Shown here piece by piece: positions 34,357 to 57,715 of a stretch of DNA of 64,000 nucleotides. Location: positions 2,604,001 to 2,668,000 of the forward strand of contig CM102284.1 in NCBI GenBank assembly GCA_046563655.1. The letters are read 5' to 3'. The notes below the pieces were generated by a model. It made no database searches, had not been told where the DNA came from, and was given only the letters and a program-made list of their open reading frames with translations. The translations under genes and the position numbers were made by a program. Numbering within the stretch: position 1 is the first letter of the stretch; each line of letters opens with the position of its first letter. Source of the stretch: Yuukianura sp. NJ FZ-2021. Its lineage: Eukaryota.

Positions 34357-37104
34357 CTAAAAGAAATTGAGGACTTTTTCGTCAGCGTATACTTCCACAT
34401 AGTTGCTGGTTGTTTGAAAACTTTCATTGCCTCCCGGTTCGGTGGGATAAGATACTGTATTCTGGCTATCGCTTTGCAGCGGTAAACAACTTTTGCTCTC
34501 CCTTTGATGCCTCATAAGATACATCTTTATTGGAAACGTTTTCCCACATCGTTCACAGTCCCATGGCCTCAACTCTGAGTTATGCACCAAGTGATTATGT
34601 CGCTTGAATCCCGCCAAATTTGAACAGTACTTTTCACAAAGTTCACAAAAAATTGAATCTGGTCCAATTTTGATGGGTTTGCAATTCGGGTATTTGATTT
34701 CGTGCCGCCTCAAGTATTTCTTGGTAGGAAATCCACGCTTGCAGCGACTACATGAAAAATCATTCTTGTTTCCTTCTGTATGTTTAATGGCTATGTGGTC
34801 CTCCAAAGTCTTAGGAGAGCTCAATTTTAAGCCACATAAGGCGCAGGTCCACCGCTTCTTCGGTTCACGTTCATTCTTAGGTGTGTGAACTCTTTGTATG
34901 TGAACTTTAATAGTATTCTGGTGTTTGAACATACGAGAACACCCTGGAACAGTGCATTTGAACCTCTTTTCTGTTGTCTCGTGCACACATTCGATATGTT
35001 TCTTAAGGTAAGCCTTGGCTTCTGAACGGTAGTTGCAACCTTCGTGTGGACACGTATGTGGTTTCAGAACTTCAACTGAAACCCCTCATGCTGAAGTTGA
35101 TGACGGCGAAAATTGGCTTTTGAACCAAACGTCTTACCACACTCGGCACATACTTCACGTTCTTGTGGAGATTTTGGTTTTAAAAGATTTGGATACAAGT
35201 CTGGATGAACTCGTGATTGGTGGTACCAGAGTTTTGCTTTGCCTGCACATCCAAAACTGCAGCCGGCAACCGTGCATTTTCTTGAAAAAAAAAAGACAAA
35301 GAAATGATGAATTTTTTTGTAAAAATTCATTTTCAGATTCAATTCTGAATAATTTTAAGTTTGAAGCTTACTCAGTCTTGCCTAATTTCTCAAAAAAATA
35401 AAATTCGACTCACCGAGATGGTTGCGAATGACAATCTTTGACGTGATACTTGAGATCTCGCTCAATACGAAAGGACCGATTACAGATGGAACAACAGTGG
35501 AGCACAGGGTTAGTCGTATGACGTCGCAATATGTGTTCGTTAAGTTTCCCTTGACGATCAAATCCCTTAGAACAAAGGTGGCACGAAAAATAAAACAGGC
35601 CTTTGTGTCGGTTCCGATGTGAGTGTAATGCGTGGAAGGCTGCATACTGCTTGTTGCATGTTGGTTCACTACATTTGTATGGATAAGGATCCTTCAAATG
35701 CTTTCGCCGATAATGTCCAGCTAATCGATCAGGGTCTGTTGATGAGAACTTGCAGCGTGGAGCGAAACAGAATTCTGGAATGCCTTCTGGTGCTTTGTAC
35801 CTCGAGGAAGGTGGTGCACGCATTTTCGTCCCTTTATTTCCAAGATCTGAGCTTAAGTTGGAGTTAGCAAGTGCTTTTTTGCGAAACCGTTCGATCATTG
35901 CGAGGTAATGTGAGTCCAATTTTTTGGCTTTTGATTTGATTGCAGAACACTTTCTCTTGCTTCTCCGATCGTTTGGTTGAAAACTGTGATGGTCGCATCG
36001 GATAAGTTGAATCTTCGCGAATTTCAGCAGCACTGGGCCTCCGACGGTTTCGTAAGTAAAAGCTATATGCAAAACCATAAATGAATATAAAATAATTAGA
36101 TTCTTTCGAGACTTCGAAATCAAAATTCGATTGAGAACACCTACTATTAGACTTTTCCTGTCTCTCCTGGAATATTTTGGGTTGAAGTGTTTTCCAGCAG
36201 AGCTTAAGGTTTGGAATGGAATTCGGTTCTGCATTAGACACAGCTGTTGCTACTTCGTTCCAAATTTGACTAACAGCAGGATCCTCGTCGTCGTATCTTG
36301 TGCTTTCTAATATAACCTTGTTGTTTTCGTACTGCTGAAAAAGGACAACCTTTTGAACTCGTGTAAACCTTGGCGTTAAGGAGCGCAGGGCAGTAAGAGA
36401 ATCGCAGCTTGGTCCAGCTGAAGTTTCGTCTGGAACCCATTCTGGATCATCATCATCATGTTTCCGCTTCACTGCACGTTGTTTCGTACGATCATGACCT
36501 TCATCTCCTTCACTTCCTGCCAATGACGAATCATCTCTGTCATTCTCAGACTCATCTGGAGGTAAAAAATGTTCCGGTGTTCCTGGAATGTCTGGCAATA
36601 TTTGCTCTTCAAACTCGTTGGTGTAATCTAAAAAAAAACAAATAAATTAGCACATGGGGAGTAAGTTATTTAATAGGTAGTGAGAAAATAGAAATAAGCA
36701 TTACCCAATTGTGGGATGATAAGAAAGTCAGGAGAAGGTTGGAAGTGATATTCTGATTTAATGCAGTGAAGATGCATGGGTTTCTTGGTATTTCCTGCTC
36801 GTTTCTTACTCTCTCGTATAATTTGTAACAAGCGCGAGCCAATCGTTCTCATTCTGTGCAAAACTAGCTCCCATTCCTCAACAACTGACTCTGCTTCTGT
36901 TAAGTATTCTTGGCAAGAAGTACATGGCGTTGCGTGTAGGTACTTGACTTCCGTTTCCTTGCTGGGCAACGGAGAGGTTTGACCCTCAAGACTAAGGACT
37001 GTTGACAGAGCACGAGCTTGAACTGAAGTAATAGTAGTCGTAGCTGACTCCTCGCAACGCCGTAAACAGAAAGTACAGATTCGTTGAGGTTCACCGACAT
37101 CCAT
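34357..37104 (-). CDS. ZAD-like/C2H2 zinc-finger protein A (apparent 1-nt frameshift at ~35082-35085)
   Basis: Exons 37104-36705, 36627-36145, 36062-35414, 35280-34357. N-terminal CTFC...PCTSC and many C2H2 fingers. The frame breaks at HEG relative to paralog B. Confidence 0.8.
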
Positions 37105-37930
37105 CCCTATGAAGGTAGAGCAGAAGCTCAAATATACGTATCGTATGTTTCGTTTTTGTTTCACCAGATTCGTAGTCTATCGCTCTCCTTTCGACTGTCC
37201 TTTGATTACAAGAAAGGAAATTACAAAATATATTTCATAAATTTTGTAGACCAGTCACGACTTTCCTCCTAGAGGTCATCTTTTCAATTGTGAAGGGCCA
37301 TGTCGATGCCCTCGCAAACATATATAAAAGGCTTCAATTTATTGTTTTGTTTAGTAATTACATAGTAATTTTATTTATTTTTTTACTAGGTTAAAAAACC
37401 CGATGGTTGAATAGTAACCGACACCGACAGCATTGGAGTATAAGGCGAACTTACAAAATCTTTCAAAAGGTATGTTGGTTAATAATTAATTCGAAGTTAC
37501 CGATTGCTGAAGCCCACACGCAATTCATAATCGCTCCATCTTGATGTGTTGATAATTCGTGTCCACAGGAGCATTAAGTTCTCGATTACAAACTAGTGAA
37601 GATGAAATTAACGTAAAGAAAAGTTGAAAATACTTTTCTCACTACAAACACTTTACTAAATTCTGTTCCAAAACTCAAAAGAGAGGTTGCAGTACGGATT
37701 ACGTGTTCAAATGTGCTTTCGCTTACGAAGAGAAGCAACTAATCCTTGGATAATCCAAGATGGATTCATAACAGATTGACTAATTCTAAGATTTGCAAGG
37801 CCTTGACTAATCCCCGGAGTCGAATTTGCATAAATATATTAAATCTTAAAACTATAACGTAAAACAATTATTCGTCTAACATTCGAAACGGTAAAATTAA
37901 AATGTAACCTAACTTTAATACATCTTCAGG

Positions 37931-40900
37931 TTACTCCGTCGTTGGTTGCTCATACCCGTAGAAGGCAAAGTAAAAGTCTTGTTGCATCTGCGATTGAACA
38001 TCTACGTTCATAGGGATCTGGATTTCAGTACGATTGGCGTCTGCTTTGCTTTCCTTGGTTATTCTAATTCTCTGTAGCGCCAATTCCCTCCGCGATTTCA
38101 ATGCGATTTTGACGTCTGATTTCCTGTTGGAGATGTGCTGCTTTCTGCGTCCCTCCTCGCAATTGTCTCTTGTAATCCTAGTAGACGGTTCGGGTCCAGC
38201 CTCAAGTTGAATATCTGCGTCTGATGACATTGGTTCAACTACTTGTTCTTCTAAGGCAATATGCTCCTGGAACGAGGATGTAGTAGAAACAGCCTCTTCC
38301 CGCGGAAAACAACTCTTGCTATCCCTTTGATGTCTCATTAGATACATTTTGATTGGAAACGTTTTGTCACAACGTCCGCATTTCCATGGTCTCAAGTCTG
38401 AGTGAACCAAGCGATTATGCCTCTTTAACCCTGCCAAATTCGAACAGTATTTGTTGCAAAGTTCACACAAGACTGAAGTGGGGCCAATTTCGATAGGTTT
38501 GCAATTCGGGTAAGTCACTTCATGCCGTCTCAAGTATTTTTGCGTAGGAAATCCGCGATTGCATCGAGCACAAGAAAAATCCTGCCTATTACCCTCCGTG
38601 TGTTTAATGGCAATGTGATCCTTCAGTGACTTACTGCTACTCAGTTTTAGGTCACAGAAGTCACAAGGCCAAAGTTTGTGTTTTTCGGAAGGAGGTGCAT
38701 GAATTCTTTGAATGTGCGTTCTCATGCCGCTACGTTGTTTGAACATGGCAGAGCAACCAGGCTCGGTACATTTGAACTGCTTCCCAGTTGTCTCGTGTAC
38801 AAGGTGAATGTGCTTTTTAACCTGGCTCTTAAGGGAGGAACGGTATTTGCATTCTTCATAGGAACATGTGTAAGGCTTCAAAACTTCAGCTGGAATTCCT
38901 TCATGTGACAACTGATGACGACGAAAAAGAAAGTTTGAAACAAACGTCATGCCACATTCGGAGCACACTTCGCGCTCTTTTCGTTTAGCCTTTTTGAGGT
39001 TGGGATACTTGTCCGAGTGATGTCGTATTCGATGGTTACGAAGATTTGAAAAGTTTCTGCTGACGTATGTACAGCCCTCTATTGTACACCTACAACCAAA
39101 ACATTTTAGATTAAATCAGTTATAACTAATTGTGTTTAATACATTTTTTTTTGTCATACAAGGAGATGTATATTGTTATTACCGACATTGCGGCGGATTA
39201 TGGAAGTATTTGAGGTGATTTTTTAATTTACGTTCTAGGCGAAAGGACCGAGCACACAAGTGACAAGAATGGAGCGGAGCATTTTCCGTATGAAACAACA
39301 AGATGTGATCTCGAAGTGACTCGGAGCGCTGGAATCCTTTGCTACAGTGTTGACACATATAAGAGAAGAGCCCGCCGTGGGCATTTCGATGGATGACCAA
39401 ACGTCGAAATTCTCGAAAGTTTCTGTCGCAGTTGGGTTCTCGACACTTGTATGGACGTGGATCCTTTAAGTGCATTTCACGGTAGTGCCCCGCTAACTCA
39501 TCCGGATCTGTGGATGAGAACTTGCAGCGTGGGGCAAGGCATGATTCTAATTTGCCTTCAAGAATTTTGAACTTCCGCGGTCGTCCTATAGGTTTCTTGG
39601 GTGACACAGCAACAGTAGCCGTTTTCCAACGCCTAGCCCTTCTGCGCAAGCGCTTGATCGTTGCCATGCGTGAAGAATTTTTTGGACTTTGACGAACAAC
39701 AACTTTTCCGGCCTTATTTTCATGACATCGTGCAAAAGCTGCGTGGTCACAAGGAATAAGCTGAATCCTTAGATATTTGAGTTTAACGGTACCTCCAACT
39801 GTCTCATGAGAGTAAGCTAAAGTGATAGCAATTGGATATTATTAAAATGGTTACTCGTACCTACTAACTACAAACAAAAGAAAACTTACTGCTGGAGTCT
39901 TCCTCGTTTTCATTCAAAGTTTTCGGCTGATGTGTTTTCCAGCAGCGTGTGGGTTCAAAATTGTTTGCTGCAGCAGGTGATTGGTGATGTATTTGAGGTA
40001 CATGGGTACCCACATGATCGCGTTGTGTGCTTCGTAGTTTTACTTTGTAGCCTTCATTCTGCTGACGAAGACCTGTGTGCTGATCTTGCGTCAATCTCCC
40101 GGGAAATATACAATGAACTTTACTCTCAGATTCAGGATGTACTAAAGTATTTTCCTCTGTAATCCATCCCGCATCATGGGCATTGTGATCTCCATCGGAA
40201 AGGTTTGAATCGCTAAGTAAACTTTCCTTGACGTCGATCATGCTAACGTTGACATATTTTGTAATTTCTTTCATCAACGGTACCCCCATTTTCTTTGTTT
40301 TCAAACAATCATCGGCCGGGAACTGAAAGGCCGCTCCCGCAGTCTTTGATACGCAATCGTAATCTAAAGCAAGAAAAGATGAATAATTAGTTGTTTATCG
40401 ATATATTTAAAGGAATTACATTATGACCCATTGACTTTTGATGGAAGCTTTTATAGTTTGGAATAATAAGAGCGAGAAACTTGGTTGGGTTGCCTAACAA
40501 GGAAGCTTCTAGTAAATTAAATGTAGCGTATAAAATGTAATATAAAATAAATGTAATATAATATCAAATAAAATATACAAAATGCAACCTAACCATAAAT
40601 CCTCACCATCCGACGTATGTCCTACTCTTAAATTGTTCGAACCTGAGATAGAAGACGAGGCCGCTCCTTTGCGGCAAGACTTCTTCCCATTTTGTCGTAA
40701 CTGCTCCCCATCTCTGATGATTTGTTTCAATGCAGACTTAACAGTTCTAATTTTATGTAAAATGTTTTCCCAGTCTTCGATTACTGCCTCCGCCTCTACT
40801 ACCCATTGTTGACAGCTCACGCATGGTGTAGCGTGTAAATACTTCAATTCCAGTACCCCGCCGTTCGGAACGTATGACCCTTGACCTTCAAAATTGAGTA

Positions 40901-41012
40901 CAGTTGATAGTGCACGCGCTTGCACTGGACTTATTAAATGTAGTGGACTAATCAACTCGTCACAATTACCGAAACAAAAAGCACAGCATCGCCTGCTTAT
41001 ATCCCAATCCAT
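37931..41012 (-). CDS. ZAD-like/C2H2 zinc-finger protein B (tandem paralog of A)
   Basis: Exons 41012-40607, 40363-39890, 39816-39183, 39089-37931. CAFC...PCVSC and a C2H2 array. Intron positions and phases match gene A. Confidence 0.88.
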
Positions 41013-42089
41013 GCTGGCTCGGTATCAGCCTTTACTAAAATTCGCTAAGTCCATGATTTCAAAACAACTTTTAAAAATGCAGGAATATGAAATGGGTTTA
41101 CTACTACCTGGGTACATAACCTTCTGTCTGTGAATTCATAAAACGGTGTAACCGCGCTACGGAGACAGTTGTCTAATCCTCAGAAATTCGATGCTTACAA
41201 AACCTTACCTTGGATTCTGAGGAGTAGTCACTTCAAGAAATACCGCAGTCTGAATTCGCGTATCGCGTTCCTCTTTCCTCATCAGAAAAAGCCAAAAGGT
41301 CTGGCTAAAGATTGGAAGTCGGATTTCTCGGATATTATATGTGCAGTTTCCTGCTTAAGTTTCAATAAGTTTCGACGCTTTTACCATAACCAAAAAGCAG
41401 GATCCTTTATCGTAGGCAAACTCGCTTTTTCTTACGTACGTTACGCTTAAAAAACTAACAATTTTGAAACAAAAACCAACGTTGTTAGGATATTTAATTG
41501 AATTGACAATGCTTAGATATTAATCTTTGCACCACATCTAATCTTACCCATCAACTAATGTAAGGTCTAATGTGTTTTACAATTGAACGGTCTATCGGAT
41601 ACGTTTTTCGCTGTATTTGGCTCATTTAAGACAAGCATAAATTAATAGGTTTTTTCGACTACTACTACTTGCTTTTTTACTACAGCGGGAGATTACGAAA
41701 ATTTTAGCCGCCCCTAGAACCATAAGCTGCCTAATTTCATTTCTAAAATTCCCAAGCTGTCTAATATCCAATATACCAATACCGCCCGTCAACAATCAAT
41801 AAAATCGAAACCCATTCCCAATAAAAAGGAGTATGCATAATGTTCCCATATATAATTCCACAGCCCAATTCTGGACGACGCGACGTCCCATGGCCCGACT
41901 TGGCTTTATGTGGACATATTCCAGAAAACAATGAATTATTTGTAAAAATTTATAACTTAGAATGCAAGGTTTAAATCCATATTTCAAGTTAAAAAATTGT
42001 CAATAGGTTAGCAAAACTTGACAAACAACAAATCCACTCTGAGCTGCTTTAAAAATTTTGGAATTTCCGACCAGCACCAACGCAAAACA

Positions 42090-43328
42090 ATGGATTCATC
42101 ATTAACCCGTAGTTTCACGATGGTAATCAACTGGGCAAGAATTTCTGGACAAGTCCCATTCAAGTTTGACGTTAAAACACACGAAATTATTTACTCTACA
42201 TCTGTTCAGTGGAAGATGATGTGTTGGATTCTCATACCGAACATACTATTTAGCACTGTACGGTTCATAACAACAATTGCGCGACAAACAATGATAATTT
42301 TTATTTGGCAATCCATTTACATTCTTTGTCTGGCACTTAACTACATGTACCACCTCATCTGTTTCATTCGTGGGAAGGATATAGTTCATCACTGTAACAT
42401 CATGTACGCGGCACTTAAGGACATTAACGGTAAGATATTAATTATGGAATAGTTTATGATAGTATTACTGTTACTATAAAATATTATGTAGTATATTAAT
42501 ATTATATATAAAATTTTAGAGTGTTGTAGTCACAACAAAGAACGGGATACCAAAACAGAAACGTGGCAGCAGCTCAGTAAACTGCTTACTGCGTCAGTCT
42601 GTATAACTGCCTTGGGCACATCGATAGCAGCTTCAATATTTACGTTGAACTATAAGGAGGGCATGGCGGTTCAATTAGGCTCACTTATCGTATCAGAGGC
42701 GCCGTTTCTAGCGGCGATTTTGCAGTTTCTGATTCCTTTCTGTTTATGGTCCAGCGTGGCGTTCATGGGTATCTTCTTCATAATTTACGTCTTCTGGCTG
42801 TTGTCAACTCTGGACAAGCTGCGCAATCTCGTACACTTGAGCGACACGCCTGTGCGTCTGATCTACGTCGTATCCATGTACAAGTCATTACAAATAACGG
42901 TTCTCCTATGTAACGACCTCACGCGTGACTATGCCCTCATTGTATCAACAAATGTATTCACCGGGGTAGCCACGGCGGGATTGACGTTGTATATTGGTTA
43001 CCATCATATTCTGGACTTTGTTACCTTCTATCCAATTTTTCTCTTCACGGTATTGTCCATAACCGTTTTGGTACTGATTTACTATACACTGGGCGACATT
43101 AACTACAAGGCGGCAAAATTGATAACAAAAATTCGCTATAAAATTTTGCGAATGCATCTGAGCAGAAGAGACAGAACTTTGCTGCAAATGTACAACCGAT
43201 CTCTGTTACCATTAAAAATTGAGCTCGGTTCTTTCGGCTACTACAAAAAGCAAAATAGTCTCAGAATCATTGCAAAGGTATTCTACTACTCCAACAAAAT
43301 GATTTTAATTACTAAAAAGGTATTCTAG
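42090..43328 (+). CDS. GR-like multi-pass chemoreceptor, paralog 1
   Basis: Exons 42090-42429 and 42520-43328. Multiple TM segments; C-terminus LPLKIELGSFGYYKKQNSLRIIAKVFYY. Confidence 0.75.
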
Positions 43329-44823: not shown

Positions 44824-45724
44824 CGCCCGGTCGAATAAGAATTGGAGTTTCATCAAAATAAAATAAAAAAAATGAATTTTTACAAATTTATTTAACAAAA
44901 TTAGCATACAGTGTTGTAAAACTCATTTTTGGAAACAATTGAATTACCTATGTATTTAAAATTCTATACAAAATTGTACATAAAATATGTACGGTTAGCA
45001 GTATACTAACTACAACAACAAATTTGTTGCTGGGTATTTTGTTGCTATTTTTTTTGAAAATCAATTTCAATTGAGTTTAAAACAAAAGATATGGCAAAAA
45101 AGTTCTTTAACTTGAATAAAGCAATTTTTATCGATTGCAGAAAGTTAATTTCAAAAATTGTCTTACATAAGTTATGGTTTGATTTTTAAAAACTTAATTT
45201 TGTTAGAAGATTGCTTGTTTTTTGGAGCAAATTTCCTTTTTTAGACAAATTATTTCCAATACAAACTCATTCCTGTGTTATTGATTACTAGTTAGTAAAT
45301 TGTTTTCTTTCTTATGCAACGCTATAAAAAAAAAGAGTTTTAATGACTCGGAGGTTGTTAAGCTGAAGTAAAGCAATATTTTTAAGTTCCTTGTTGTTGT
45401 TTTTCATTTTCACGATTTGTTCCAACAACAGTCTAATTCTCTAGTAATTGCTATCCTTAATCCTCGATTGATTTTAAAATTTTACATGAAAAGCTGGAAT
45501 AATTTTGAAGTTGCTGTCAAAGATCTAACAACTGAAACAACTTTTCTAGATGTTGAGTTGTAGAGGTGAAAAACAAAACTCTCAGAACATTACAATTGTT
45601 AATACCACTCGATATTCGAAAATCAGTTCAAATTTCCATTAGAAACAATTTATAAACAAACAAATTCAACGTCTTTAAAATTTTTGGAAAACTTTCTTCA
45701 GGCAGTTCATTGCAATTTGCAACT

Positions 45725-46939
45725 ATGGATACAACACTTGTTAAAATTATCAAAGTTGTTGCAGTCTGGGGACACGCTTCTGGTCAAATTCCAATCAAAT
45801 TCGACGACGCAAAAAATATAGAAATTTTTCACCCTTCTATCCAATGGTGGATCAGTTCCCGAATTTTTGTTCCTTTTCACATGCTATTTGTTTTGTACCG
45901 GTTCTTTTCAACTATCTCTAGTGAATCGCTGCATATCTTTATCATGCAGTCAATCTACTGCCTTTGTGTTGGAAACCACCTTGTGTACTACTCTATGTAC
46001 GCATTTACCGGAAATAAAATGTCCAACTACCGCAACAGAATGTTTGCCTCCCTCAAATACATTTCTGGTAAGCTTATTTTTAGTCATGCTTTTTAATAGT
46101 TGAAGGTGAAATTTTTAATTTGAGCAGAATGCTGTGAATCTTCAGCTAAAGCAAAAATTCCAAAGGATAATTGGCAAAACCTGACCAAATTCTGTATCAT
46201 GTCTGTTGGTGCCTCTGCTGTGATAACGTCTCTTGCAACTATTGTCATTCAAATCAGCCACAACGGAGGCCTGTCAGTACAATTAAGCTCAATTCTTGCA
46301 TCGAGGTCAATGACCTTGGCTTCAATCGTACAATTTCTGGTAGCGCTAAACCTATGGGCAATCGGAACCTATTTAGTTTGCTTCCTCGTCACTTTTATTT
46401 TGTGGACAATTTCCTGCCTCAGGACGATGATATACCTTGTACAACATGCTGGCAACAGCCCTGTACAACTCGTCTATGTTGTATCTTTGTACAAGAAGAT
46501 GAAGTTAACCGTCATGTTGGGTAACGAACTTACACGTGATTATGTACTAATGGCTTCTACGAATATGTTGACAGGAATGGCCACTGTTGGGTTAAGTCTG
46601 TACATTGGTTACCGCCATACGCTGCAATTTGATACACTTTTCGCAACGTCTGGAATCACAATTTTGTCCATTGGGTTAGTTCTATTGTCATACTATACAC
46701 TGGGTGACATCAACTACAAATCAAACAAGTTGATTGTGAAAATACGTTACAAAATTTTACGTATGGATATCAGCAGAAGAGACAGAACACTACTCCAAAT
46801 GTATAACAGATCTCTTTTGCCGCTAAAAATTGAGCTTAGCTCATTTGGCTTCTACAAAAAGCAAAACAGCCTCCGCATCATTGCGAAATTGTTCTACTAC
46901 TCAAACAAAATGGTTCTCATTACAAAAAAGGCATTTTAG
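45725..46939 (+). CDS. GR-like multi-pass chemoreceptor, paralog 2
   Basis: Exons 45725-46067 and 46128-46939. Same intron phase and C-terminal motif as paralog 1. Confidence 0.75.
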
Positions 46940-47624: not shown

Positions 47625-49985
47625 ATGGAACATCAAATATTGTTAAACGTCATTCGGAACAAGAGAGATAGAAAAGAGCTAACCGCAACAGAAATTCAGT
47701 CGTTTGTTGCTGCCGTGGGCACAGAAGCTCTTAGCGAGGCTCAGATTGGTAAAAAGATTAAATAATAAATTAACTAAAGTGACTTTTTGGTATAATAACC
47801 TAACAAATTGAAAGTAACTAAATATAAAGGTTCCTTGACAACCAAATTGTATTTCCTACAACATGTTGTCCACTAAGTGAGGGTTTCCAAAAATCTTACT
47901 TCAAAATTTGCACCAATTTTGTTTATGCTTCTTACCTCAAGTTTTTCCAAACTTTGAACCTTTGGATAAAAAAAGTTTAAAATTACGATAGAAATGGTGC
48001 TGAAGTTCAGCCTATTTCATTTTTGAAAATTTTGGCAAACAATTAAAAAACCCGAGTCATTGGACAACCTGGAGTAGAAAAAGTTTTTTTTTTTTGTTTA
48101 CGAACCTTTTGGTAACTATGATCGGAAATGGTTGAGGTGAACAATACCTTGTCTTAAAGTATTTGTCAATCTCGAGTTTTGATATACACTACAGGAGCAT
48201 TCCTGATGGCGATTTACCTCAATGACATCTCTTTAGAAGAAACAGCGAATTTGACAAACTCCATGGCCAACTCCGGTATAAGTTGAAATATTTTCAAATT
48301 TCCCACAAAAATTCTAACTTAAGTAGTTTTTAAGGAATTCGACTGGAGTGGCCAATGGAGTGGAAAGGAACTGTAGTTGACAAGCACGCCACTGGTGGTG
48401 TTGGTGACAAGGTTTAATAGATGATTTCGCATCCATTTTTTTTAATTTTTTCAAAATATTTTCACTAAATTTAAATATTTTTAAGACTTCTCTTGTGCTC
48501 GCTCCTGCACTGGCCGCTTGTGGATTACGTGTTCCTATGATTTCTGGTCGATCACTGGGATTCACCGGAGGAACATTGGACAAGCTCGAATCTATTCCAG
48601 GATTCAACGTCAATTTGCAAACGGGGGATATCCAAAAAGCATTGGAGAATTCAGGATGTTGTATCGTGAGCCAATCAGAAGAGATAGCTCCAGCCGATAG
48701 GATTCTCTACCGAATCCGTGATGCTACTGGGACTGTTGAAAATGAAGGCGTCATCACTTGTGAGAAGAAAAATTTTCAAAAAATTCTGAAATATTTTAAA
48801 TTTTTATGTCGATTTCCTATTATTTCGTACAAACATTTGTTAAACTGTGTTTTTCAAGCATCAATCATTTCGAAGAAGGCTGCTGAGGGCCTAGATGCCC
48901 TTGTGCTGGATGTCAAATTTGGTCGTGGATCGTTTATGAAAAGGGTTGAAACTGCACAATCTTTGGCGCGAAAATTGGTAAAATTTTCAAGTTTTGAAAT
49001 TTTCTCAAAAGTGAGAAGTTGATGCTTGGTTTCCAAGTATTCGATCCTGTAAAATTTGAACTAGTAGCTAATTCGTGGCATCAAAAATACAAAATCACAA
49101 TTTTAAAAAGGTTGCGGCGGGAAACTCGTTTGGAATAAAAACGAGTGCAGTTTTATCTCGAATGGACTCACCGCTCGGATATGCTGTTGGAAACGCATTA
49201 GAAGTAGCAGAGGCTATCGATACATTGAAAGGCCACGGGCCAGCAGACCTTTTGGAGCTTGTTGCAGCATTAGGTTGTGGTTAAATTTTTACGAAAGGTA
49301 ATACAGGAATGTCAAGTCGAAAGAATATGGTTTTCCAATCTAGGTGGTAAACTGCTCAAATCCACTGGCCATGCGCAGTCAAAAAAAGACGCCAAGTCCA
49401 AAATTCTGGAAGTGATTGAAAACGGAAAAGCTCTGCGGTACTTCGGTATGATGTTGATCTGTCAAGGGTGTGAATCAACCAACGTCAAAGAACTCTGCGC
49501 TGGAGACAAGTGGAAAATTCTTCCGAGAACTTCATCTGTGTCTCCACTTTTGGCAAAATCGACAGGTATAAAACAAAAGTCAAGAGCTGTATCCATCGGT
49601 GTAGCCTAGTGTGTAATGGATGGTTTAACTAGTAACTTCTTCAATAAGCTAAAACTTCAAAGCGTACAATGAATTAGATTTTTAGATATATGCATATAAT
49701 TAATTCCTCGTTTCAGGTTACTTGGAATCCATTGATGCTCTTGTTGTTGCATCAGTGAGTCATGGCGTTGGGTCCGACGGAGTGCAGCCACACAACAAGC
49801 ATGCTGCTGGCATTGTGCTAAAGAAGAAACCCGGAGACGCAGTTTCTGAAGGCGACGTTCTTATGGAGATACATCATGACGGAAGAGACGTCGCTCTAGT
49901 TTTGCAAAAATTACATTCAGCCATAAAAATTATTTCTAACCAACCCACGATCCCGCCCCTTATCTCAAAATCTGAGCGAATTTGA
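47625..49985 (+). CDS. TYMP: Thymidine phosphorylase (pyrimidine nucleoside phosphorylase family II)
   Basis: Spliced gene: [10 protein letters not shown]...[14 protein letters not shown]...[51 protein letters not shown]...[26 protein letters not shown]...[16 protein letters not shown]...[12 protein letters not shown]. Confidence 0.93.
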
Positions 49986-50576
49986 AAGTAAATTGATAGC
50001 TTGCATGTCCTTGCAAGCAAAAAAATGTGATCAAAGTATGGTGGAACAGAACATTAACTTTGTAACGTTTTTTATTTCAAAATCTTTTTACCAGTAATCT
50101 TATCAGGCTATTTCTACAATTCTACTTCTGAAATTCCACTTCTGACGTCCGTATGTTATAAATAATAATCTGTAGTACCTCGTGAATCTATTTCTAAAAC
50201 GGTTTAAAATTTGCAAAGTTCCAACATAAAACCCAAATTAGTTTAATGAGGTAAGGTAAACAAACGAAAGCGTGCGTAAACAAGAGACACACTTAACCCA
50301 TCTGCAATTTCAAATTTTGCGGAGAATTGTTCTAAAACTGGGTTTTCTGTTTGTTCTGATGAAAACGCAAACCAGGATGCAAATTTTCTCTAACTACATT
50401 TTCAACTTCAAGTTTTAAAAATTATGCCGCTAAGTTGAGTTTGAAGTATTTTTTTTCTTAATCTAAAGTCAATCGTAACGTTGTTTCATAGTTACCTCTC
50501 AGAAGGAAATTGGTGAAAACTAAACTTGAAAGGTTAAAGTTTACTCTATTTCACTGCCAGTTCAAATAGAGCTGTC

Positions 50577-51790
50577 ATGGATTCAACACTTGCCAAGATT
50601 TACAAAGTTGTTGCGGACTGGGGTTATTTTTGCGGTCAACTCCCAATCAAACTTGATCGTGAAAAAAATATTGAAATTTATCAGCCTTCTGTTCAATGGT
50701 GGATCAGTTCTCGCTTATTTGTTCCGTTTCACATGCTCTTTGTTCTGTATCGATTCATCTCAACAATTTCAGAGCAATCGCTGCACGTATTCATCTTGCA
50801 GTCAATCTACTGTCTCACTATGGGAAACCACTTTGTGTATTACACAATGTACGCATGCGCTGGTCGGAAAATTTCGACCTCCCGTAACAAGATGTTTGCA
50901 TCCCTGCAAAACATTTCAGGTCAGTTGAATTTTTTTGCCGTAGTTTTTTTTTTCTCTAAAAAACTGATGTTTTGCTTATTTGATCAGAAAGGTGCGAATA
51001 TTCCTCTGTATCAAGAATTCCAAGCGGTAATTGGCAAAAATACACCAAATTCTGCGTTTTCTCTGTCGGGGTTTCTGCTATAGTCACGTCACTTGCAACT
51101 GTCATCATTCAAATTAATTACAATGGACGAGTATCGGTTCAAATTGGATCAATTTTAGTTTCGAGATCAATGACCTTGGCTTCCGTTTTACAATTTCTGG
51201 TGGCCATTTCTTTCTGGTCAATCGGGACCTATCTGGCTTGCTTCTTAGTCACATTCTATTTGTGGACTATTTCCTGCCTCAAGAAGCTGACAATTATTGT
51301 ACAACATGCTGGCAGTAGCGGCAAACACCTAGCCAATGTTGTATCTCTGTACAAGTCGATGCAGTTGACGGTCCAACTGTGCAACGAATTTACACGTGAC
51401 TACGCTCTAGTTGCGTCGACAAATGCATTGACAGGAATCGCCACAGTTGGATTTGCATTGTACCTAGGTTATCATCGCACGCTTGAATTCGATACACTTT
51501 TAGCAACGTCTATCATCACTGCTTTGTCTGCTGAGCTATTGATTATGATATATTACACATTGGGTGAAATCAACTACAAGTCTACAAAACTCATTTCGAA
51601 GCTACGTTTGCGAACGAATCGGAACAATAGAGACAAGACGTTGCTCCAAATGTACAATAGATCTCTCTTGCCGCTAAAAATTGAGCTTAGCTCGTTTGGA
51701 TACTACAAAAAACAGAACAGTCTTAAAATTATTCCAAAGGTGTTCTACTACGCGAACAAACTGGTTCTCATTACCAAAAATGTATTTTAG
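50577..51790 (+). CDS. GR-like multi-pass chemoreceptor, paralog 3
   Basis: Exons 50577-50919 and 50988-51790. N-terminal half very similar to paralog 2. Confidence 0.75.
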
Positions 51791-52475: not shown

Positions 52476-53684
52476 ATGGCTTCAGATAAAATTGGCGGAG
52501 CAAAGCGAGTTTTAATTACAGGTCTGGACGGATTTATTGCCCACCATGTGACAGATTTTCTCGTGTCCAATACTGATTGGTCCATTGTTGGCTTGAGTAA
52601 GATTGATTCAGCTTCTACACTGCATCGACTCAAGGACGTGCAACAGACAAATTCAAAGTTCGATGGACGCGTTGAATTTATTTTCCATGATTTACGAGCT
52701 CCAGTGAATCAGTATACAGCATCCCGCCTGGGAGCAGTCAACTACATCTTGCACATGGCTGCAAGTACGCATGTCGACAGGAGTATTGAGTGCCCGATGG
52801 ACTTTGTCCTGGACAATGTCGTTGCTACTTGTAATGTTCTCGACTATGCCAGAACCTTGCCATCTTTGGATCTCTTCGTTTACTTCTCCACGGATGAAGT
52901 TTTTGGTCCAGCTCCACCGGGAGTGGCATTCAAAGAATGGGATCGTTACAAATCTGGTTATTCTTTTTTTTTTTGAAAATTTTGTAAATTGAAACAAATC
53001 AAATTAAGAAAGGATTTAATTTTGAATTCGTTGTCCATAGGTAATCCATATGCTGCTTCGAAAGCTGGTGGTGAAGAACTTGCGCTGAGTTACTTCAACA
53101 CTTATAAATTGCCCGTGGCCATTACTCATACAATGAACGTCATCGGAGAACGACAGCACCCAGAAAAGTTTGTGCCAAAGGTCATCAATGCCGTTACAAG
53201 CGGGCAGTGTATCTATATACACGCTAATGCCGATCGTACCAAAGCAGGAACAAGATGTTACCTTCATGCTAAAAATGTTGCAGCAGCACTTCTATTTCTG
53301 ATTGAACAGCACGCTAAGCACGGTAATGTTGTAGGAGATAAATTCAACATTGTTGGGGAACAAGAAATTGATAACCTTACACTTGCAAAAATGATTGCTG
53401 AAATAATCGGAAAGCCACTGCAATACGAAATGGTGGATTTCCACTCCAGTCGCCCGGGTCATGACCTACGGTATGCACTTGACGGCTCTAAGCTAAAGGC
53501 TATGAACTTCACGTACCCTCAAACTTTTGAAGAGAGCTTGAAGAAAACAGTTTTGTGGTATTTGGAAAACAAGGTGTGGCTTCTTGCAGAAGATGCTCAA
53601 GAGACACTCCACCTTGAAAGTTTAAAATTTAAACAAAATGTACAAACAAATTCAAAAGCTGTTTGCACACTTTCTAAATTGTAA
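52476..53684 (+). CDS. rmlB: dTDP/UDP-glucose 4,6-dehydratase (RmlB-like extended SDR)
   Basis: Exons 52476-52956 and 53041-53684. Motifs: ITGLDGFIA, HMAASTHVDRS, catalytic FSTDEVFG, NPYAASK, PEKFVPK, RPGHDLRYALDG. Confidence 0.9.
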
Positions 53685-54360
53685 GTTCCCATTTGGTTGA
53701 TGTATAATAAGTAATTTTAAATAGTAATTGTACAAATTAATGGTCATAGGAAAATTGTAAATTGGGCATTGGTAGTGAACAGTTAACTGTGCTATAATTG
53801 CAACAGAAATCATAGTTGCATAAGAAGTTTGCAAAGGTTGAGAAATCCGGATTTAAAATGCAAATCCTTGAATAAAAAATAAAACTCATTGAAATAAGAA
53901 GTTCAATTCGTTTAACCACAAAAATTACTTCGCTGTCACATTCAGATTTAGAACACGAATCGGCAGTTTAATTAAACTCAACCACAAACTTCTGTCTCAA
54001 AGCGTGTTGAGTACAATGGCTGGACTAATTAGTTATGGTTGGAGTTCAGTCAGTTGACATCAGCAGAAAACCGTGGGGACAAGGACAGTCTAGTCTGTTT
54101 TTTTTTAAAAAGGACAACCAGACTATAATCCGAAATTCAGTCATAGGTGTACATGGTTTTATAAATGTAAAATGCTAGAATCTTTATAAAAACGACACAA
54201 AAGTTGATTGTTGCGATGAATCACTTTCATGTACATCATGTGACCCTAGGTCTTCTTATGAGTCAGAGGTCAACTTATTGTGGTTCACAAAGAAAAGTGG
54301 ACTGGATATTCTAGCAAAATTCTCTACGGTGGGCTACGGCTCGCTCGCACCATTCGCTAC

Positions 54361-54401: not shown

Positions 54402-55052
54402 GGTTGGAAGGTTTTATAATTGATTGTGGCAAGACTCGTGCCAGAATAGTTGCGCTTGCGACGCAGCACGGAAGGGCAGAGACAGAGAGTCAGACAGATA
54501 AATCAGGGATTTAGTTACGTGCAACCTGTTGACAATTTTATGACAACCCAACTTAACAACAGTTAATTGTGCGACGAGGGAAGTCAAATCAGACATCAGT
54601 TTACTGGGGGGCGTTACGCGTAAGAGCAGAAGTTTGTTATTTTCTACAAAACATACAGGATTCACACAGAGTAGCGTTAAACGAATCATTGATCGAACTG
54701 GATGCGGTAAAGGCATTGTTCATTCATAGCTTGAATTTTGAAAGGCATTTTAAATGACACAATGTCAGCTAAAATGCATTTCCAAAATTCAAACGTAAAG
54801 TTTTACGTTGTGAATATCATTAACCTAACCAACATTATTTGAATTCCAGAACAATCAGAGAACCTTGAACCTAACCAAATATTGGGGTTGTCTGACGTCC
54901 GACCCAACTTGAATGACCCGATTTCTGACGAGTCCTGTTATTCGGTAAGTGCAGTTATTACACGCCTCACAGACAATGGAATAATGAGAATATTATTTAA
55001 TTTATAGTACATTTTTAGTGTAGATTGATCTGTGAATCTCTTGTTTTGAAAC

Positions 55053-57715
55053 ATGGATGCTCAATTTTTCAAAAGACTGGAACAAATGAGGGCAGGAATT
55101 CCGAACAACCCGTCGATGATAAGCCAGTATACAGACAAGAGATTTGTTTGTATGGAGCATGAGAAGTCACTACAGAGCCAAGCGGCTTTACGTATCAAGA
55201 ATTCGCCTTATAATTTTCAACAAAGCATGTCTTCCGGAATTAAACCGTCCATAAATTCTGTTGTCCAGTTGGATTTAGAAAACCGAGTTGACATTACCAC
55301 AATGTCCAAAAATACCGACGTTGTGCTGACCGGAAAATACTTTCTTTGCCGCACCCTTGCTCCTCCATTTAAGATAACAGCAATCATGACAGTCGTTGAA
55401 GACCCTGAAGGAGAAAAGGCATTGCGACTTGCACTTTATAACTATTCTTTTGCGGATTGGAGCTCGCTTGAAGCAATGTGCGAAGAATTACCAGTGGGAC
55501 AAATCTTAATTATCAAAAACCCGTGGTTTAAATCCACACAAGACGGCGGATTTTCTCTTCGTTGTGATAACCCAGGTGATGTTGTCTTTCTTTCTACTGT
55601 GTCTTTTAAGGAGAAGTTTCCTACAATTTCCTGGAAGGGAGAAATCCCAATTCATTGGCGAAACTATGTTAAGAAGCCACCAGCGACTGCGGAGGAGTGG
55701 AAAAATGAAGGAAACGGACTGTTCCGAAAAGCTAAATACGAACAGGCTGTGGAATATTACACAACAGGACTTCAGTTAAAGCGGCGTGAAGAAGTCACGA
55801 AGGCTTTGCTTTCAAACCGAGCAGCAGCGTATATTGCGATGAGATGTTTTCGGACTGCTCTAAAAGACTTGGATGAACTATTATCCATCGACCCACGTCA
55901 CGAGAAGGGCAACTACAGAAAAGCAAAGTGTCTCATTGGACTGCAACTTTACACTGACGCAATTACTTTCATGGAGGGACTACCAGTGGAAACTCGAACA
56001 ACGTTTGATGCACTGCTAGAATCAGCCAGTACTCAGTACAAGCAGCAAACCACCGGTGGCTACGACATTATGAAACTTTACGCCGCCGAAGGCACAACGT
56101 GCCATGAAGATATTGCTGACTACGTTGGACCTGTTCGAATGGAACACATTCCTGGAAAAGGCCGAGGACTGGTTGCAACTCGGGACATTTCCGCTGGGGA
56201 GGTTCTTCTTGTTTCCAAGGCATTTGACATTGTATTCCCACCAAAGAAAGGCTTGGAGACAGTGGCGATAAGCGTTAATTTGGAAACGAATTTGATGCAT
56301 CTGCCGGGACATGACCTTCTTGTGAAAACCATAGCCCAGAGAGTCAAACTTGAACCCGAGCTTGCAAAACAGTTGTATGACCTTTATGCAGGTACATTGA
56401 ATCTCAGCTCGGTAAAAATGTGCTATCGCGGCGCTGCATGGATTTGGCCGCCATGTTTTGTTTTTTCTAAACAAAGAGTATGCTGAGTCCGAATCCGCAA
56501 GTATTTCTTTCCGGAAAGGAACGGAAGTATTTTTTTTTAGTTTTGAAAATTGAAATTTCCCCATAAGGATTACATGTTAATTATTTTCTGAAATTAGGTT
56601 TTTGCTTCTATCTTGCTAGGTTGGGTTAGGTAACTTGAAAGCTATAAACAATATTTCTATAACGTTTGGTTAGGTACCCAAAAATGCTGAATCCATGCTG
56701 CACCGCCTTAGCACAATTATTCCCTCAACTCAACCGACAGATTAATAGATTTCACTTCCTGAGCACTTTTTAAAACACAATGTTTTTATAACATAATATT
56801 GAAATTTTACCTTATTGAATAGGGCCAGGCTTATCCCCGTGGAGTGGCGAAGCTTGCAACGAAAACGGTCAAATACCGCCGGTCGATTTAAAAAGAATTG
56901 ACTCAATTTGTACTTACAATGCCTTTTCGGACTGTGCCATGAGGACACGACGAGACGTAAAAGCTGAAACTGGTGACGAAACTGGGCCTGAATCTTTGGT
57001 TGAGAAGAATGACCTAACAGGCCTCTGGGTCATGCCTTCTTACATTAACCACAGTTGTTGGAACTGCAACTGTCGCTGGAGCACTTCCGCCAACGTGATG
57101 CTGGTGAGAGCATTCAAGTCGATTGGAACGGGCGAAGAGATTCTCACGTCATACACCTCTCCTGAAGGTAAACAAGCAAAGCGCCAGAAAATAATGAAAA
57201 AGCATGGCTTCGCATGTCCTTGTCAGTTATGCCTTCTCGACTCCGATACTTCGGCAGCTGGGATCAAACGGCGGGAGCTTTTGAAAAGAATTGAGGAACT
57301 GACTCCTAAAAATGAAGATGGATCTGAGAAGTGGAAAATGACTGGCGCTAAACAAGTTTTGAAGCTAATCAAAGAACTAAACGAGTTGAAGTTGCCACAA
57401 ATTCATCCCAGACTGATCTCGACCTTGTTTTCGCTAGGAATGTACTTCACTCAAAAGGGAAATATCAAGCAGTCTACGGATTTGATGCTGCAATGTCACT
57501 CGATGACCGAGAATTCACCTCTGATCGAGATTACAGTGCAAGCCACGGTGAATGTCATTGGGAATTTACTTCTACAGAACAAAATCCAAGCAGCCCAGAA
57601 GTGGATTGAAACTTTGAAACGGGAGCTAATGATATGCTACGGTACGATAGAAGTTGCTACTGACTTCTTTCCCCACACAACTACGATGATGACCAAGGCG
57701 GGAATTTCTTTGTGA
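55053..57715 (+). CDS. TPR + SET domain protein, fungal-type architecture
   Basis: Exons 55053-56391 and 56823-57715. N-domain GKYFLCRTL...VVEDPEG...LALYNY...LPVGQILIIKNPWFK...LRCDNPGDV; TPRs (WKNEGNGLF, LLSNRAAAY); SET GKGRGLVATRDISAGE, GLWVMPSYINHSC, GEEILTSY; post-SET HGFACPCQLC. Confidence 0.88.
56411..56723. mobile_element. MITE (non-autonomous, MULE-like) in the TPR-SET intron
   Basis: 34-bp imperfect terminal inverted repeats (27/34 identical) beginning GG. Flanked by CTCAGCTC (56403-56410) and CTCAACTC (56724-56731), an 8-bp TSD with 1 mismatch. Internal GGTTAGG motifs. Confidence 0.7.

What the first reader, a model, noticed from the sequence alone, without database searches (positions are those of the whole stretch)
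52476..53684. Prokaryote/phage-type NDP-glucose 4,6-dehydratase that carries an intron (HGT candidate)
Seen: intact catalytic TDE and YxxxK motifs and one spliceosomal intron. Signatures NTDW, HVDRSI, FGPAP, THTMNVIGERQHPEK, AGTRCYLHA and VDFHSSRPGHDLRYALDG differ from animal TGDS as recalled (HVDLSF, TRSSNVYGPHQYPEK). They match a clade recalled from environmental bacteria and phages. Established: this reaction is the committed step to L-rhamnose and other 6-deoxysugars, which are rare in animals. Inference: a domesticated foreign gene enabling unusual glycans.
Basis: partly seen in the sequence, partly recalled or inferred. Interest (0 to 1): 0.7.

Follow-up and report, generated by a model that had tools for sequence, protein, structure and literature searches.

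The report
Bacterial sugar-dehydratase gene in a springtail-like genome
An animal genome, probably a springtail's, carries an intact, intron-bearing gene for a sugar-nucleotide dehydratase that came from tiny uncultured Peregrinibacteria-type bacteria, a kind of enzyme that insects are reported to lack.

Summary
At 52476-53684 (+) lies a two-exon gene: 374 codons and one 84-nt GT..AG intron. It encodes an RmlB-like NDP-hexose 4,6-dehydratase with the NAD-binding motif, T-D-E, Y-xxx-K and RPGHDLRY all intact.

The foreign-origin reading is also supported, and the donor can be named more precisely. The protein is 64-70% identical over its full length to proteins of Candidatus Peregrinibacteria/Peribacteria. 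Phage and viral-contig relatives reach only 49-56%, and E. coli RfbB 33%. In a careful tree the gene, with two unnamed metagenome proteins, lies inside the Peregrinibacteria clade (branches 100/99 and 99/96). An AU test does not reject a position just beside that clade (p 0.17).

The gene sits between animal genes and has host-like base composition. It recurs with its flanks in DNA runs of a second study, and all eight listed coding variants are synonymous.

"Rhamnose" and "unusual glycans" are not shown. Five donor genomes have no RmlC and no RmlD over the family cut-off. The host genome could not be searched, and no RNA data were found.

One new point: the protein ends in -SKL, a peroxisome-import-type signal.

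This is a new member of a known kind, because gene transfer into springtails is well documented. The scan had not noted this gene before.

The parts
52476..52956 (+). Exon 1: codons 1-160 plus the first base of Gly161. It holds a 9-residue N-terminal extension, the NAD-binding TGLDGFIA motif (52518-52541) and the catalytic S-T-D-E-V (52887-52901).
   Evidence: Pfam PF16363/PF01370 and TIGR01181 at 70 bits. Alignment to PDB 2hun.
52957..53040 (+). Spliceosomal-type intron: 84 nt, GT..AG, phase 1, 20% G+C, with an in-frame stop.
   Evidence: The junction is gapless against 15 homologues. There is no RNA evidence.
53041..53684 (+). Exon 2: the last two bases of Gly161, codons 162-374 and the TAA stop. 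It holds YAASK (53049-53063), THTMNVIGERQHPEK (53124-53168) and RPGHDLRYALDG (53451-53486).
   Evidence: TIGR01181 at 134 bits. PDB 1bxk at 91 bits, with alignment.
53673..53681 (+). C-terminal tripeptide Ser-Lys-Leu, a candidate peroxisomal targeting signal type 1. It ends a tail of about 33 residues beyond the enzyme fold.
   Evidence: That SKL is the canonical PTS1 is established knowledge. Import was not tested.
53871..53883 (+). Two overlapping AATAAA polyadenylation-like signals, about 190 nt after the stop.
   Evidence: pattern only.
50538..51790 (+). Upstream neighbour: the last copy of a tandem array of multi-pass membrane protein genes (other copies at 42012-43328 and 45656-46939). 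This is host-type context, not part of the transferred DNA.
   Evidence: ORFs similar to each other. No Pfam match. No match to Peribacteria neighbour genes.
55050..57715 (+). Downstream neighbour: a TPR + SET domain gene (host-type context).
   Evidence: PF07719/PF00515, PF00856.

Best explanation
This is a functional gene that an ancestor of this springtail-like animal acquired by transfer of a single gene from a Peregrinibacteria/Peribacteria-like bacterium.

Since the transfer it has gained four things:
- a short spliceosomal intron;
- a new start codon 9 codons upstream of the bacterial one;
- host-like base composition;
- a C-terminal -SKL.

The protein is an extended short-chain dehydrogenase that binds NAD+ tightly. 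It should convert an NDP-glucose into NDP-4-keto-6-deoxy-glucose in three steps:
1. Tyr164/Lys168 with Thr139 oxidise C4.
2. Asp140/Glu141 eliminate water across C5-C6.
3. The hydride returns to C6.

Shown here: gene structure, integrity, family, catalytic residues, phylogenetic position, genomic context and synonymous-only variation.

Inferred: splicing, expression and the chemistry. The nucleotide moiety is also inferred. [quoted passage not shown] What happens to the product, and where in the cell, is open. The product could be reduced, epimerised or aminated to a 6-deoxy sugar for glycans or small molecules. It could also act by itself, as the product of vertebrate TGDS does.
For: Family:
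- Pfam PF16363/PF01370.
- The best NCBIfam model is TIGR01181.
- The best PDB matches are dTDP-glucose 4,6-dehydratases, E 6e-25.
- T-D-E and YxxxK/RPGHDLRY align with solved enzymes.

Origin:
- The best database hits are 59-72% identical to the exon-2 query; every hit among the best 36 that carries a source name is Peregrinibacteria or Patescibacteria.
- 34 of the top 35 genome loci are titled Peribacteria, Peregrinibacteria or Patescibacteria group.
- FastTree, 289 rows: the gene with P0003 and P0123 has support 99, inside an 88-row clade (98) whose 29 named rows are all Peregrinibacteriota or Patescibacteria.
- Quick IQ-TREE, 90 rows: supports 100, 96 and 99.
- Careful IQ-TREE, 51 rows: the trio has 100/99, inside clades with 100/99 and 99/96.
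- Nothing among 155 added metagenome and viral loci joins the trio.

In the animal genome:
- The window holds STAT, 7tm_1, iGluR, C2H2 and SET/TPR genes.
- It has an intron.
- G+C is 42.9% and GC3 38.9%. Host ORFs have 37-45% G+C; 34 Peribacteria orthologues have medians of 55.7% and 71.5%.
- Contigs of a run from a second study cover exon 1, the end of exon 2 and both flanks.

Under constraint:
- 8 of 8 listed coding variants are synonymous third-position changes.
- 166 of 183 columns that are at least 95% conserved in 85 bacterial rows are kept.

Single-gene transfer: 0 matches outside the gene for 542 ORFs taken from 10 Peribacteria loci.
Against: - No RNA run was listed, so splicing and expression are unproven.
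- The AU test does not reject the trio lying beside rather than inside the sampled Peribacteria clade (delta lnL 13.6, p 0.17). 'Donor within Peribacteria' is therefore not settled.
- The two nearest proteins, P0003 and P0123, come from one unnamed 6-kb metagenome contig that I could not fetch. They could belong to an unsampled bacterium rather than to another animal.
- The two exons score 70 + 134 bits on TIGR01181 against a cut-off of 365. The Peribacteria orthologues score 225-234. The clade is therefore not an RmlB equivalog, and its substrate is unknown.
- Only 40 of 243 variant sites were listed, so the 8-of-8 count covers the best-supported sites only.
- No partner enzyme is known. The host genome is not held.
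- The springtail assignment rests on earlier notes of this scan, which I did not test.
Confidence: 0.8

Rival explanations
1. The gene is intact but stands alone. Its product, UDP-4-keto-6-deoxyglucose, is the end point and is not a precursor of a 6-deoxy sugar. It could re-oxidise stalled UDP-xylose synthase (UXS1), as vertebrate TGDS does. On this reading a foreign gene supplies an activity that hexapods otherwise lack.
For: PMC12488480 (passages read) reports three relevant points:
- Products of the bacterial and fungal orthologues also reactivate UXS1.
- Insects have UXS1 but no TGDS.

The transfer was of one gene, with no partner in the window. Five donor genomes have no RmlC and no RmlD over the cut-off.
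Against: The same paper ties the need for TGDS to H6PD, which it says insects lack. A C-terminal SKL points away from the ER/Golgi, where UXS1 works. Nothing here tests the idea. The host genome could not be searched for UXS1, H6PD, TGDS or reductases.
Confidence: 0.12
2. The gene reached the animal not from Peregrinibacteria but through a phage, a giant virus or another eukaryote that carries a Peribacteria-like copy.
For: - The family is abundant in phages: 205 phage records, 600 viral-contig stretches and mainly viral Atlas clusters.
- The trio's two other members are of unknown origin.
- The AU test allows a position outside the sampled bacteria.
Against: - All 205 phage records are below 60% identity.
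- The best viral contigs are 49-55% identical to P0003.
- None joins the trio or the Peribacteria clade in the 444-row tree.
- The named haptophyte homologue is only 45.6% identical.
Confidence: 0.08
3. It is bacterial contamination or an assembly chimera, not an animal gene.
For: Springtail samples carry soil and gut bacteria. No long record spanning the whole stretch was listed.
Against: - It has a GT..AG intron with an in-frame stop.
- Its composition is host-like.
- Animal genes lie 686 bp upstream and 1.4 kb downstream in one window.
- Contigs of three runs of one sample and of a run from a second study cover the gene and both flanks.
- No other Peribacteria-like gene is nearby.
Confidence: 0.02
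4. It is a decaying, non-functional relic of a transfer.
For: - There is no expression evidence.
- The terminal branch is longer than the median (0.51 against 0.24).
- 17 of 183 conserved positions have changed, including the third Gly of the NAD motif to Ala.
- The paralogue-like P0123 has lost the catalytic Asp.
Against: - The 374-codon frame is complete and needs precise splicing.
- All catalytic residues are kept.
- 8 of 8 listed coding variants are synonymous.
- Composition is fully host-like, which implies long residence without decay.
Confidence: 0.05
5. It is a vertically inherited metazoan TGDS-type gene.
For: TGDS is also an RmlB-like enzyme. No TGDS sequence could be put in the trees.
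Against: - It is 64-70% identical to Peribacteria proteins but 33% to E. coli RfbB. Human TGDS is given as 34% identical to RmlB (PMC12488480).
- It lies within or beside a bacterial clade, with strong support.
- Insects are reported to lack TGDS.
Confidence: 0.01

Closest known systems
'NAD-dependent epimerase/dehydratase family' proteins of Candidatus Peregrinibacteria/Peribacteria (for example the Candidatus Peribacter riflensis protein P0126, MDD5055898.1 and HLC76319.1)
   Same: - 64-70% identical over the full length, with the same tail after the fold.
- All motifs are shared.
- The animal gene lies within or beside this clade.
   Different: - The bacterial genes have no intron, start at MKRVL, and have median G+C 55.7%.
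- They lie in loci of GT-C (PMT_2-like), GT2, DUF2304 and many GT4 glycosyltransferases.
- None has been characterised, and all score below the RmlB cut-off.
- The animal gene stands alone and ends in SKL.
RmlB/RfbB/RffG dTDP-glucose 4,6-dehydratase (TIGR01181; PDB 1bxk, 1g1a, 2hun)
   Same: The fold family, the NAD motif, T-D-E, YxxxK and RPGHDLRY are shared. The reaction mechanism is presumably the same.
   Different: - Only 33% identical to E. coli RfbB and below the equivalog cut-off.
- The motif is MNVIGE where E. coli RffG has SNNYGP.
- No RmlA, RmlC or RmlD context.
Cyanophage 'nucleotide-sugar epimerase' genes (Synechococcus phage S-SM2 SSM2_191, S-SCSM1, ACG-2014f)
   Same: They belong to the same wider clade. 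S-SM2 is 53.6% identical.
   Different: They lie outside the Peribacteria clade in every tree. Their function is also untested.
Vertebrate TGDS (UDP-glucose 4,6-dehydratase; PMC12488480)
   Same: It is an animal enzyme of the same reaction type that works without a rhamnose pathway. Its product, UDP-4-keto-6-deoxyglucose, has a role of its own.
   Different: TGDS is the canonical eukaryotic form and is reported absent from insects. The gene here is a bacterial xenologue. The two were not compared directly.
Nematode rml-3 (an RmlC-type gene acquired from bacteria; PMC10473587, abstract read)
   Same: It is a precedent for a bacterial 6-deoxysugar-pathway gene domesticated by an animal and used for the cuticle.
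   Different: It is a different enzyme (epimerase), a different animal phylum and a different donor. Nematodes have the whole pathway; here no partner is known.
Horizontally acquired genes of Collembola (Folsomia candida, PMC5490193; Orchesella cincta, PMC4987106)
   Same: The phenomenon is the same: intron-bearing foreign genes among host genes. Earlier notes of this scan list many in this genome.
   Different: Searches for 'dehydratase', 'epimerase' and 'dTDP' found nothing relevant:
- The F. candida main text has no occurrence.
- Its 3 held supplements have none either; one file was cut when stored.
- The O. cincta supplement showed only NDUFA9-type entries among the places listed (2 per term; 10 'dehydratase' occurrences in all). 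File 1 was not searched.

Membership tests
Extended-SDR NDP-hexose 4,6-dehydratase (RmlB-like) | N-terminal Rossmann NAD-binding motif GxxGxxG/A | tested here: met
   TGLDGFIA at residues 15-22. The third Gly is Ala here but Gly in at least 95% of 85 bacterial rows. The Pfam Epimerase and GDP_Man_Dehyd profiles match from profile position 1.
Extended-SDR NDP-hexose 4,6-dehydratase (RmlB-like) | Catalytic Tyr-x-x-x-Lys | tested here: met
   YAASK at 164-168 aligns with the Y-S-A-S-K of E. coli RffG, 1bxk.
Extended-SDR NDP-hexose 4,6-dehydratase (RmlB-like) | Thr followed by the Asp-Glu acid/base pair that marks 4,6-dehydratases. That epimerases and decarboxylases differ at this site is recalled knowledge. 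| tested here: met
   STDEV at 138-142 aligns with the STDEV of PDB 2hun.
Extended-SDR NDP-hexose 4,6-dehydratase (RmlB-like) | Score over the TIGR01181 equivalog cut-off (365.1 bits) | tested here: not met
   The two exons score 70.4 and 134.3 bits. The full-length Peribacteria orthologues score 225-234 bits. It is therefore a sister clade and not an RmlB equivalog; the substrate nucleotide is open.
Extended-SDR NDP-hexose 4,6-dehydratase (RmlB-like) | Conversion of NDP-glucose to NDP-4-keto-6-deoxyglucose | not testable with these tools
   This needs an enzyme assay.
dTDP-L-rhamnose pathway (RmlA-B-C-D) | RmlC and RmlD partners present | tested here: inconclusive
   The host genome is not held, and no partner lies in the window. 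In 5 donor genomes, RmlC is found in 0 of 5 and RmlD over the cut-off in 0 of 5. Sugar-1-phosphate nucleotidyltransferases are found in 5 of 5.
Metazoan TGDS orthologue | Groups with animal TGDS in a tree | not tested
   No TGDS sequence could be obtained from any tool. The indirect evidence is against it: the gene lies within or beside a bacterial clade, and insects are reported to lack TGDS (PMC12488480).
Gene horizontally acquired by an animal | Placed within or beside a donor clade, away from animal sequences | tested here: met
   Supports are 100/99 and 99/96 in the careful tree, 96 and 99 in the quick tree and 98 in FastTree. The AU test leaves a sister position open (p 0.17).
Gene horizontally acquired by an animal | Physically part of the host genome: host neighbours, intron, host composition and an independent data set | tested here: met
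   Contigs of a run from a second study cover the gene and its flanks. No single spanning record was listed.
Gene horizontally acquired by an animal | Expressed and spliced | not testable with these tools
   No RNA holder was listed.
PTS1-targeted peroxisomal protein | C-terminal [SAC][KRH][LM], canonically SKL | tested here: met
   The protein ends ..CTLSKL. Import itself is not testable here.

The most novel reading that the evidence does not exclude
A gene from a Candidate-Phyla-Radiation bacterium (Peregrinibacteria) was domesticated by a hexapod. No such donor-to-animal case turned up in my searches. By acquiring a C-terminal SKL the enzyme was sent to peroxisomes.

There, or in the cytosol, it would give springtails a stand-alone source of UDP-4-keto-6-deoxyglucose. 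That product could serve in two ways:
- as a cofactor-rescue metabolite, replacing the TGDS that hexapods lack;
- as the entry point to 6-deoxy sugars that decorate the animal's own bacterial-type polyketides and terpenoids, through its horizontally acquired glycosyltransferases.

Other homologues also end in SKL or AKL. One is from a haptophyte and the rest are of unknown origin. This would mean that eukaryotes repeatedly send this enzyme family to peroxisomes.
Probability: 0.12. Interest if true: 0.8.

Novelty: new member of a known kind. Interest (0 to 1): 0.45.

Why it matters
Springtails are already known for many foreign genes, so one more is not a surprise in kind. Three points make this one worth a note.

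- **Unusual donor.** The donor lineage is an ultra-small, uncultured Peregrinibacteria-type bacterium. My search for Peregrinibacteria plus horizontal gene transfer plus eukaryote listed 10 papers (titles and abstract starts seen). None concerned transfer to an animal.
- **An activity hexapods lack.** The gene supplies an NDP-glucose 4,6-dehydratase. A 2025 study says insects lack this enzyme, and in vertebrates its product has a function of its own.
- **A possible peroxisomal signal.** The protein has gained what looks like a peroxisomal import signal. That would be an unexpected place for nucleotide-sugar chemistry in an animal.

If the product feeds a 6-deoxy sugar into cuticle glycans or secreted small molecules, the gene would bear on springtail surface chemistry and defence.

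Tried and rejected
- **Host genome search.** No genome is held for this window. TGDS, UXS1, H6PD, RmlC/D-like or reductase partners could therefore not be sought.
- **Expression.** No RNA holder was listed.
- **Fetching the P0003/P0123 contig.** The viral-contig scan found only relatives 49-55% identical.
- **Last protein search.** I spent it on the downstream neighbour (55050-56486) with lengths 'longer'. That searched only proteins of 838 residues or more and gave two irrelevant TPR hits. The 'springtail' label was therefore not tested by me.
- **Careful 90-row tree.** It did not finish in two runs. I report its quick version and a finished careful tree of 51 rows.
- **Rows left out of the trees.** For the 289-row tree I left out 57 rows: fragments under 300 residues, and fused, intein-bearing or over-long forms above 420 (P rows) or 460 (L rows). 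They are listed. For the 51-row tree I chose rows by hand to span the clades and left out E. coli RfbB because of its very long branch.
- **Earlier notes of the scan.** Word and sequence look-ups found no note on this gene and no partner enzyme in this genome.
- **Literature.**
  - 'dTDP-glucose 4 6-dehydratase' + 'horizontal gene transfer' + 'arthropod': 0 papers.
  - 'Collembola' + 'horizontal gene transfer' + 'dehydratase': 4 papers, none relevant by title or abstract.
  - The main text of the metazoan HGT compendium (PMC13342648) has none of my terms, and its supplements could not be read. They may list this gene family.
- **Atlas look-up of P0003.** It returned only large phage and bacterial clusters of the family.
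- **Not run.** I ran no structure prediction and no complex prediction. Sequence matches to solved RmlB enzymes already settle the fold.
Full report
**1. What is there**

The + strand between 52476 and 53684 holds two open frames joined by a short intron.
- Exon 1 runs from the ATG at 52476, which follows an in-frame stop, to 52956.
- The intron is 52957-53040: 84 nt, GT..AG, 20% G+C, phase 1.
- Exon 2 runs from 53041 to the TAA at 53682-53684.

The intron contains an in-frame stop, so the gene works only if it is spliced. Splicing gives 1125 nt, or 374 codons. Across the junction the protein (..EWDRYKS-G-NPYAASK..) aligns without a gap to 15 homologues. No RNA run was listed for this DNA, so the intron rests on sequence and homology.

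**2. Family and active site**

- Both exons match Pfam GDP_Man_Dehyd and Epimerase.
- The best NCBIfam model for both is TIGR01181, dTDP-glucose 4,6-dehydratase. They score 70 and 134 bits against a cut-off of 365.
- The best solved relatives are dTDP-glucose 4,6-dehydratases. For exon 2 these are 1bxk, 6bi4, 8du1, 2hun and 1g1a, at E about 1e-24.
- STDEV aligns with the STDEV of 2hun.
- YAASK and RPGHDLRY align with the same motifs of E. coli RffG.
- The NAD motif reads TGLDGFIA.

The chemistry of an RmlB-type 4,6-dehydratase is therefore fully provided for. The protein is nevertheless not an RmlB equivalog: it is 33% identical to E. coli RfbB. It belongs to a separate large clade.

**3. Relatives**

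The two protein searches gave no hit above 72% identity to the exon-2 query and no copy of the window's own protein.
- Every hit among the best 36 that carries a source name is Candidatus Peregrinibacteria, Peribacter or Patescibacteria; a Nanoarchaeota protein appears lower in the list.
- In one genome per species, 34 of the 35 best loci are titled Peribacteria, Peregrinibacteria or Patescibacteria group, at 63-71% identity.
- Further down come other Patescibacteria, DPANN archaea, Bdellovibrionota, Acidobacteriota and Planctomycetota.
- Phages hold the family too: 205 records, all under 60% identity, with Synechococcus phage S-SM2 best at 54.9%.
- IMG/VR contigs reach 49-55% identity to P0003.

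**4. Trees**

| Tree | Rows | Result |
|---|---|---|
| FastTree | 289 (57 left out, listed) | The gene joins two unnamed proteins, P0003 and P0123 (99). The trio sits inside an 88-row clade (98) whose 29 named rows are all Peregrinibacteriota or 'Patescibacteria group'. |
| Quick IQ-TREE, site-mixture model | 90 | Trio 100; enclosing clades 96 and 99. |
| Careful IQ-TREE | 51 | Trio 100/99, inside clades of 35 rows (100/99), 31 rows (99/96) and 26 rows (91/84). Two Peregrinibacteria subclades branch off outside it. |
| FastTree with 155 added metagenome and viral loci | 444 | No new member of the trio. |

An AU test does not reject a tree in which the 32 bacterial rows are held together without the trio (delta lnL 13.6, p 0.17). 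The safe statement is 'within or immediately beside the sampled Peribacteria clade'.

**5. The two nearest proteins**

P0003 (373 aa) and P0123 (375 aa) each come from a JGI contig recorded as 6,038 bp, apparently the same one.
- Like the animal protein, they have lost the bacterial start Met at MKRVL and begin 9-15 residues earlier.
- P0003 shares four departures from otherwise conserved bacterial residues with the animal protein.
- P0123 has lost the catalytic Asp (STAEV).

This looks like a tandem pair in another host of the same transfer. I could not fetch the contig, so it may instead be an unsampled bacterium.

**6. Is the gene really in the animal genome, and is it kept?**

- The window carries STAT, rhodopsin-type GPCR, ionotropic glutamate receptor, C2H2 zinc-finger and TPR+SET genes.
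- A tandem array of membrane-protein genes ends 686 bp upstream of the ATG.
- None of 542 ORFs from 10 Peribacteria loci matches the window outside the gene, so one gene was transferred.
- G+C is 42.9% and GC3 38.9%, like the host ORFs (G+C 37-45%). The 34 Peribacteria orthologues have medians of 55.7% and 71.5%.
- Contigs of three runs of one sample cover the stretch.
- A run of another study and organism label covers exon 1 (459 bp, 34 differences), the end of exon 2 (273 bp, 3 differences) and both flanks.
- All 8 variant sites listed inside the coding sequence are synonymous third-position changes. Only the best-supported sites were listed.
- The protein keeps 166 of 183 columns that are at least 95% conserved among 85 bacterial rows.

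Contamination and decay are therefore both unlikely.

**7. What it may do**

In Peribacteria the gene lies in a conserved locus with a large PMT_2-type GT-C enzyme, a small GT2, DUF2304 and many GT4 enzymes. One locus adds a methyltransferase and another a DegT aminotransferase. This is a surface-glycan locus.

In five such genomes:
- This protein is the best TIGR01181 match (225-234 bits), and none is over the cut-off.
- There is no RmlC (0 of 5).
- There is no RmlD over the cut-off (0 of 5).
- Sugar-1-phosphate nucleotidyltransferases are present (5 of 5).

The donor context is therefore not a classical rhamnose pathway. Some homologues are fused to DegT or to glycosyltransferases.

In the animal no partner is known. 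Passages of PMC12488480 state three things:
- The products of the bacterial and fungal orthologues do the same.
- Insects have UXS1 but neither TGDS nor H6PD.

A stand-alone dehydratase can thus be useful by itself. The paper's logic (need tied to H6PD) does not obviously apply to hexapods. The abstract of PMC10473587 gives a precedent for an animal using a bacterial rhamnose-pathway gene for its cuticle.

I commit to 'active NDP-glucose 4,6-dehydratase, probably using UDP-glucose'. I leave the fate of the product open between a 6-deoxy sugar (more likely) and a stand-alone metabolite.

**8.

The protein ends in -SKL (53673-53681), the canonical peroxisomal targeting signal.

Among 263 database homologues, 5 end in [SAC][KRH][LM]:
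- P0206 (SKL);
- P0208 (SKL), from a haptophyte transcriptome;
- P0234 (SKL);
- P0242 (AKL);
- one Peribacteria protein (AKM).

By my rough residue-frequency estimate, which is not a tool result, fewer than one such ending, and about 0.1 exact SKL, would be expected by chance. Whether the unnamed ones are eukaryotic is unknown.

**9. Novelty**

Gene transfer into springtails is well documented, and earlier notes of this scan list many cases in this genome. None concerns this gene.

I found no mention of it in the papers and supplements I could search. There are gaps:
- One F. candida supplement was cut when stored.
- One O. cincta file was not searched.
- The supplements of the metazoan HGT compendium could not be read.

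I class it as a new member of a known kind. It has an unusual donor and an interesting possible targeting signal.

Noticed in passing
window 53673-53681: The dehydratase ends in Ser-Lys-Leu, the canonical peroxisomal import signal. Three database homologues also end in SKL (one is from the haptophyte Haptolina ericina) and one ends in AKL. Only one Peribacteria protein has a loosely similar ending (AKM).
   Followed up: partly
window 23997-24758 (-): A single uninterrupted 253-codon frame matches Pfam PF14099 (Polysaccharide lyase, E 5e-15). It has a hydrophobic N-terminal stretch and host-like composition (G+C 41%). It may be another foreign carbohydrate-active gene.
   Followed up: no
window 42012-43328, 45656-46939, 50538-51790 (+): Three tandem two-exon copies of a multi-pass membrane protein gene lie here. 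The large exons are clearly alike, and there is no Pfam match. They may be a lineage-specific chemoreceptor-like family.
   Followed up: no
window 48408-49022 (+): An exon matches Glycos_transf_3 (PF00591, E 4e-21), the fold of thymidine/pyrimidine-nucleoside phosphorylases. It lies 3.5 kb upstream of the dehydratase. There is no evidence that the two are linked.
   Followed up: no
proteins P0003 and P0123 (unnamed JGI contig recorded as 6,038 bp): These are the only close relatives of the animal protein. They appear to be a tandem pair with N-terminal extensions like the animal gene's. P0123 has lost the catalytic Asp (STAEV) and part of the THVD motif, which suggests a paralogue with a changed or lost function.
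   Followed up: partly
homologues P0135, P0146-P0151, P0155, P0163 and others: Many members of the wider clade, about 660-700 aa long, carry intein and homing-endonuclease domains (PF14528, PF14890) inside the dehydratase. Others are fused to DegT aminotransferase (P0208, P0234) or to glycosyltransferase domains (P0175).
   Followed up: no
loci L002, L009, L028, L033 (Peribacteria genomes): A conserved surface-glycan locus surrounds the dehydratase. It holds a GT-C protein of about 960 aa with a PMT_2 domain, a small GT2, DUF2304 and five to seven GT4 genes. RmlC is absent from all 5 genomes checked.
   Followed up: partly
window 34357-41024 (-): There are two tandem copies of a multi-exon C2H2 zinc-finger gene. 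Their exon sets (34357-37176 and 37931-41024) are clearly paralogous.
   Followed up: no
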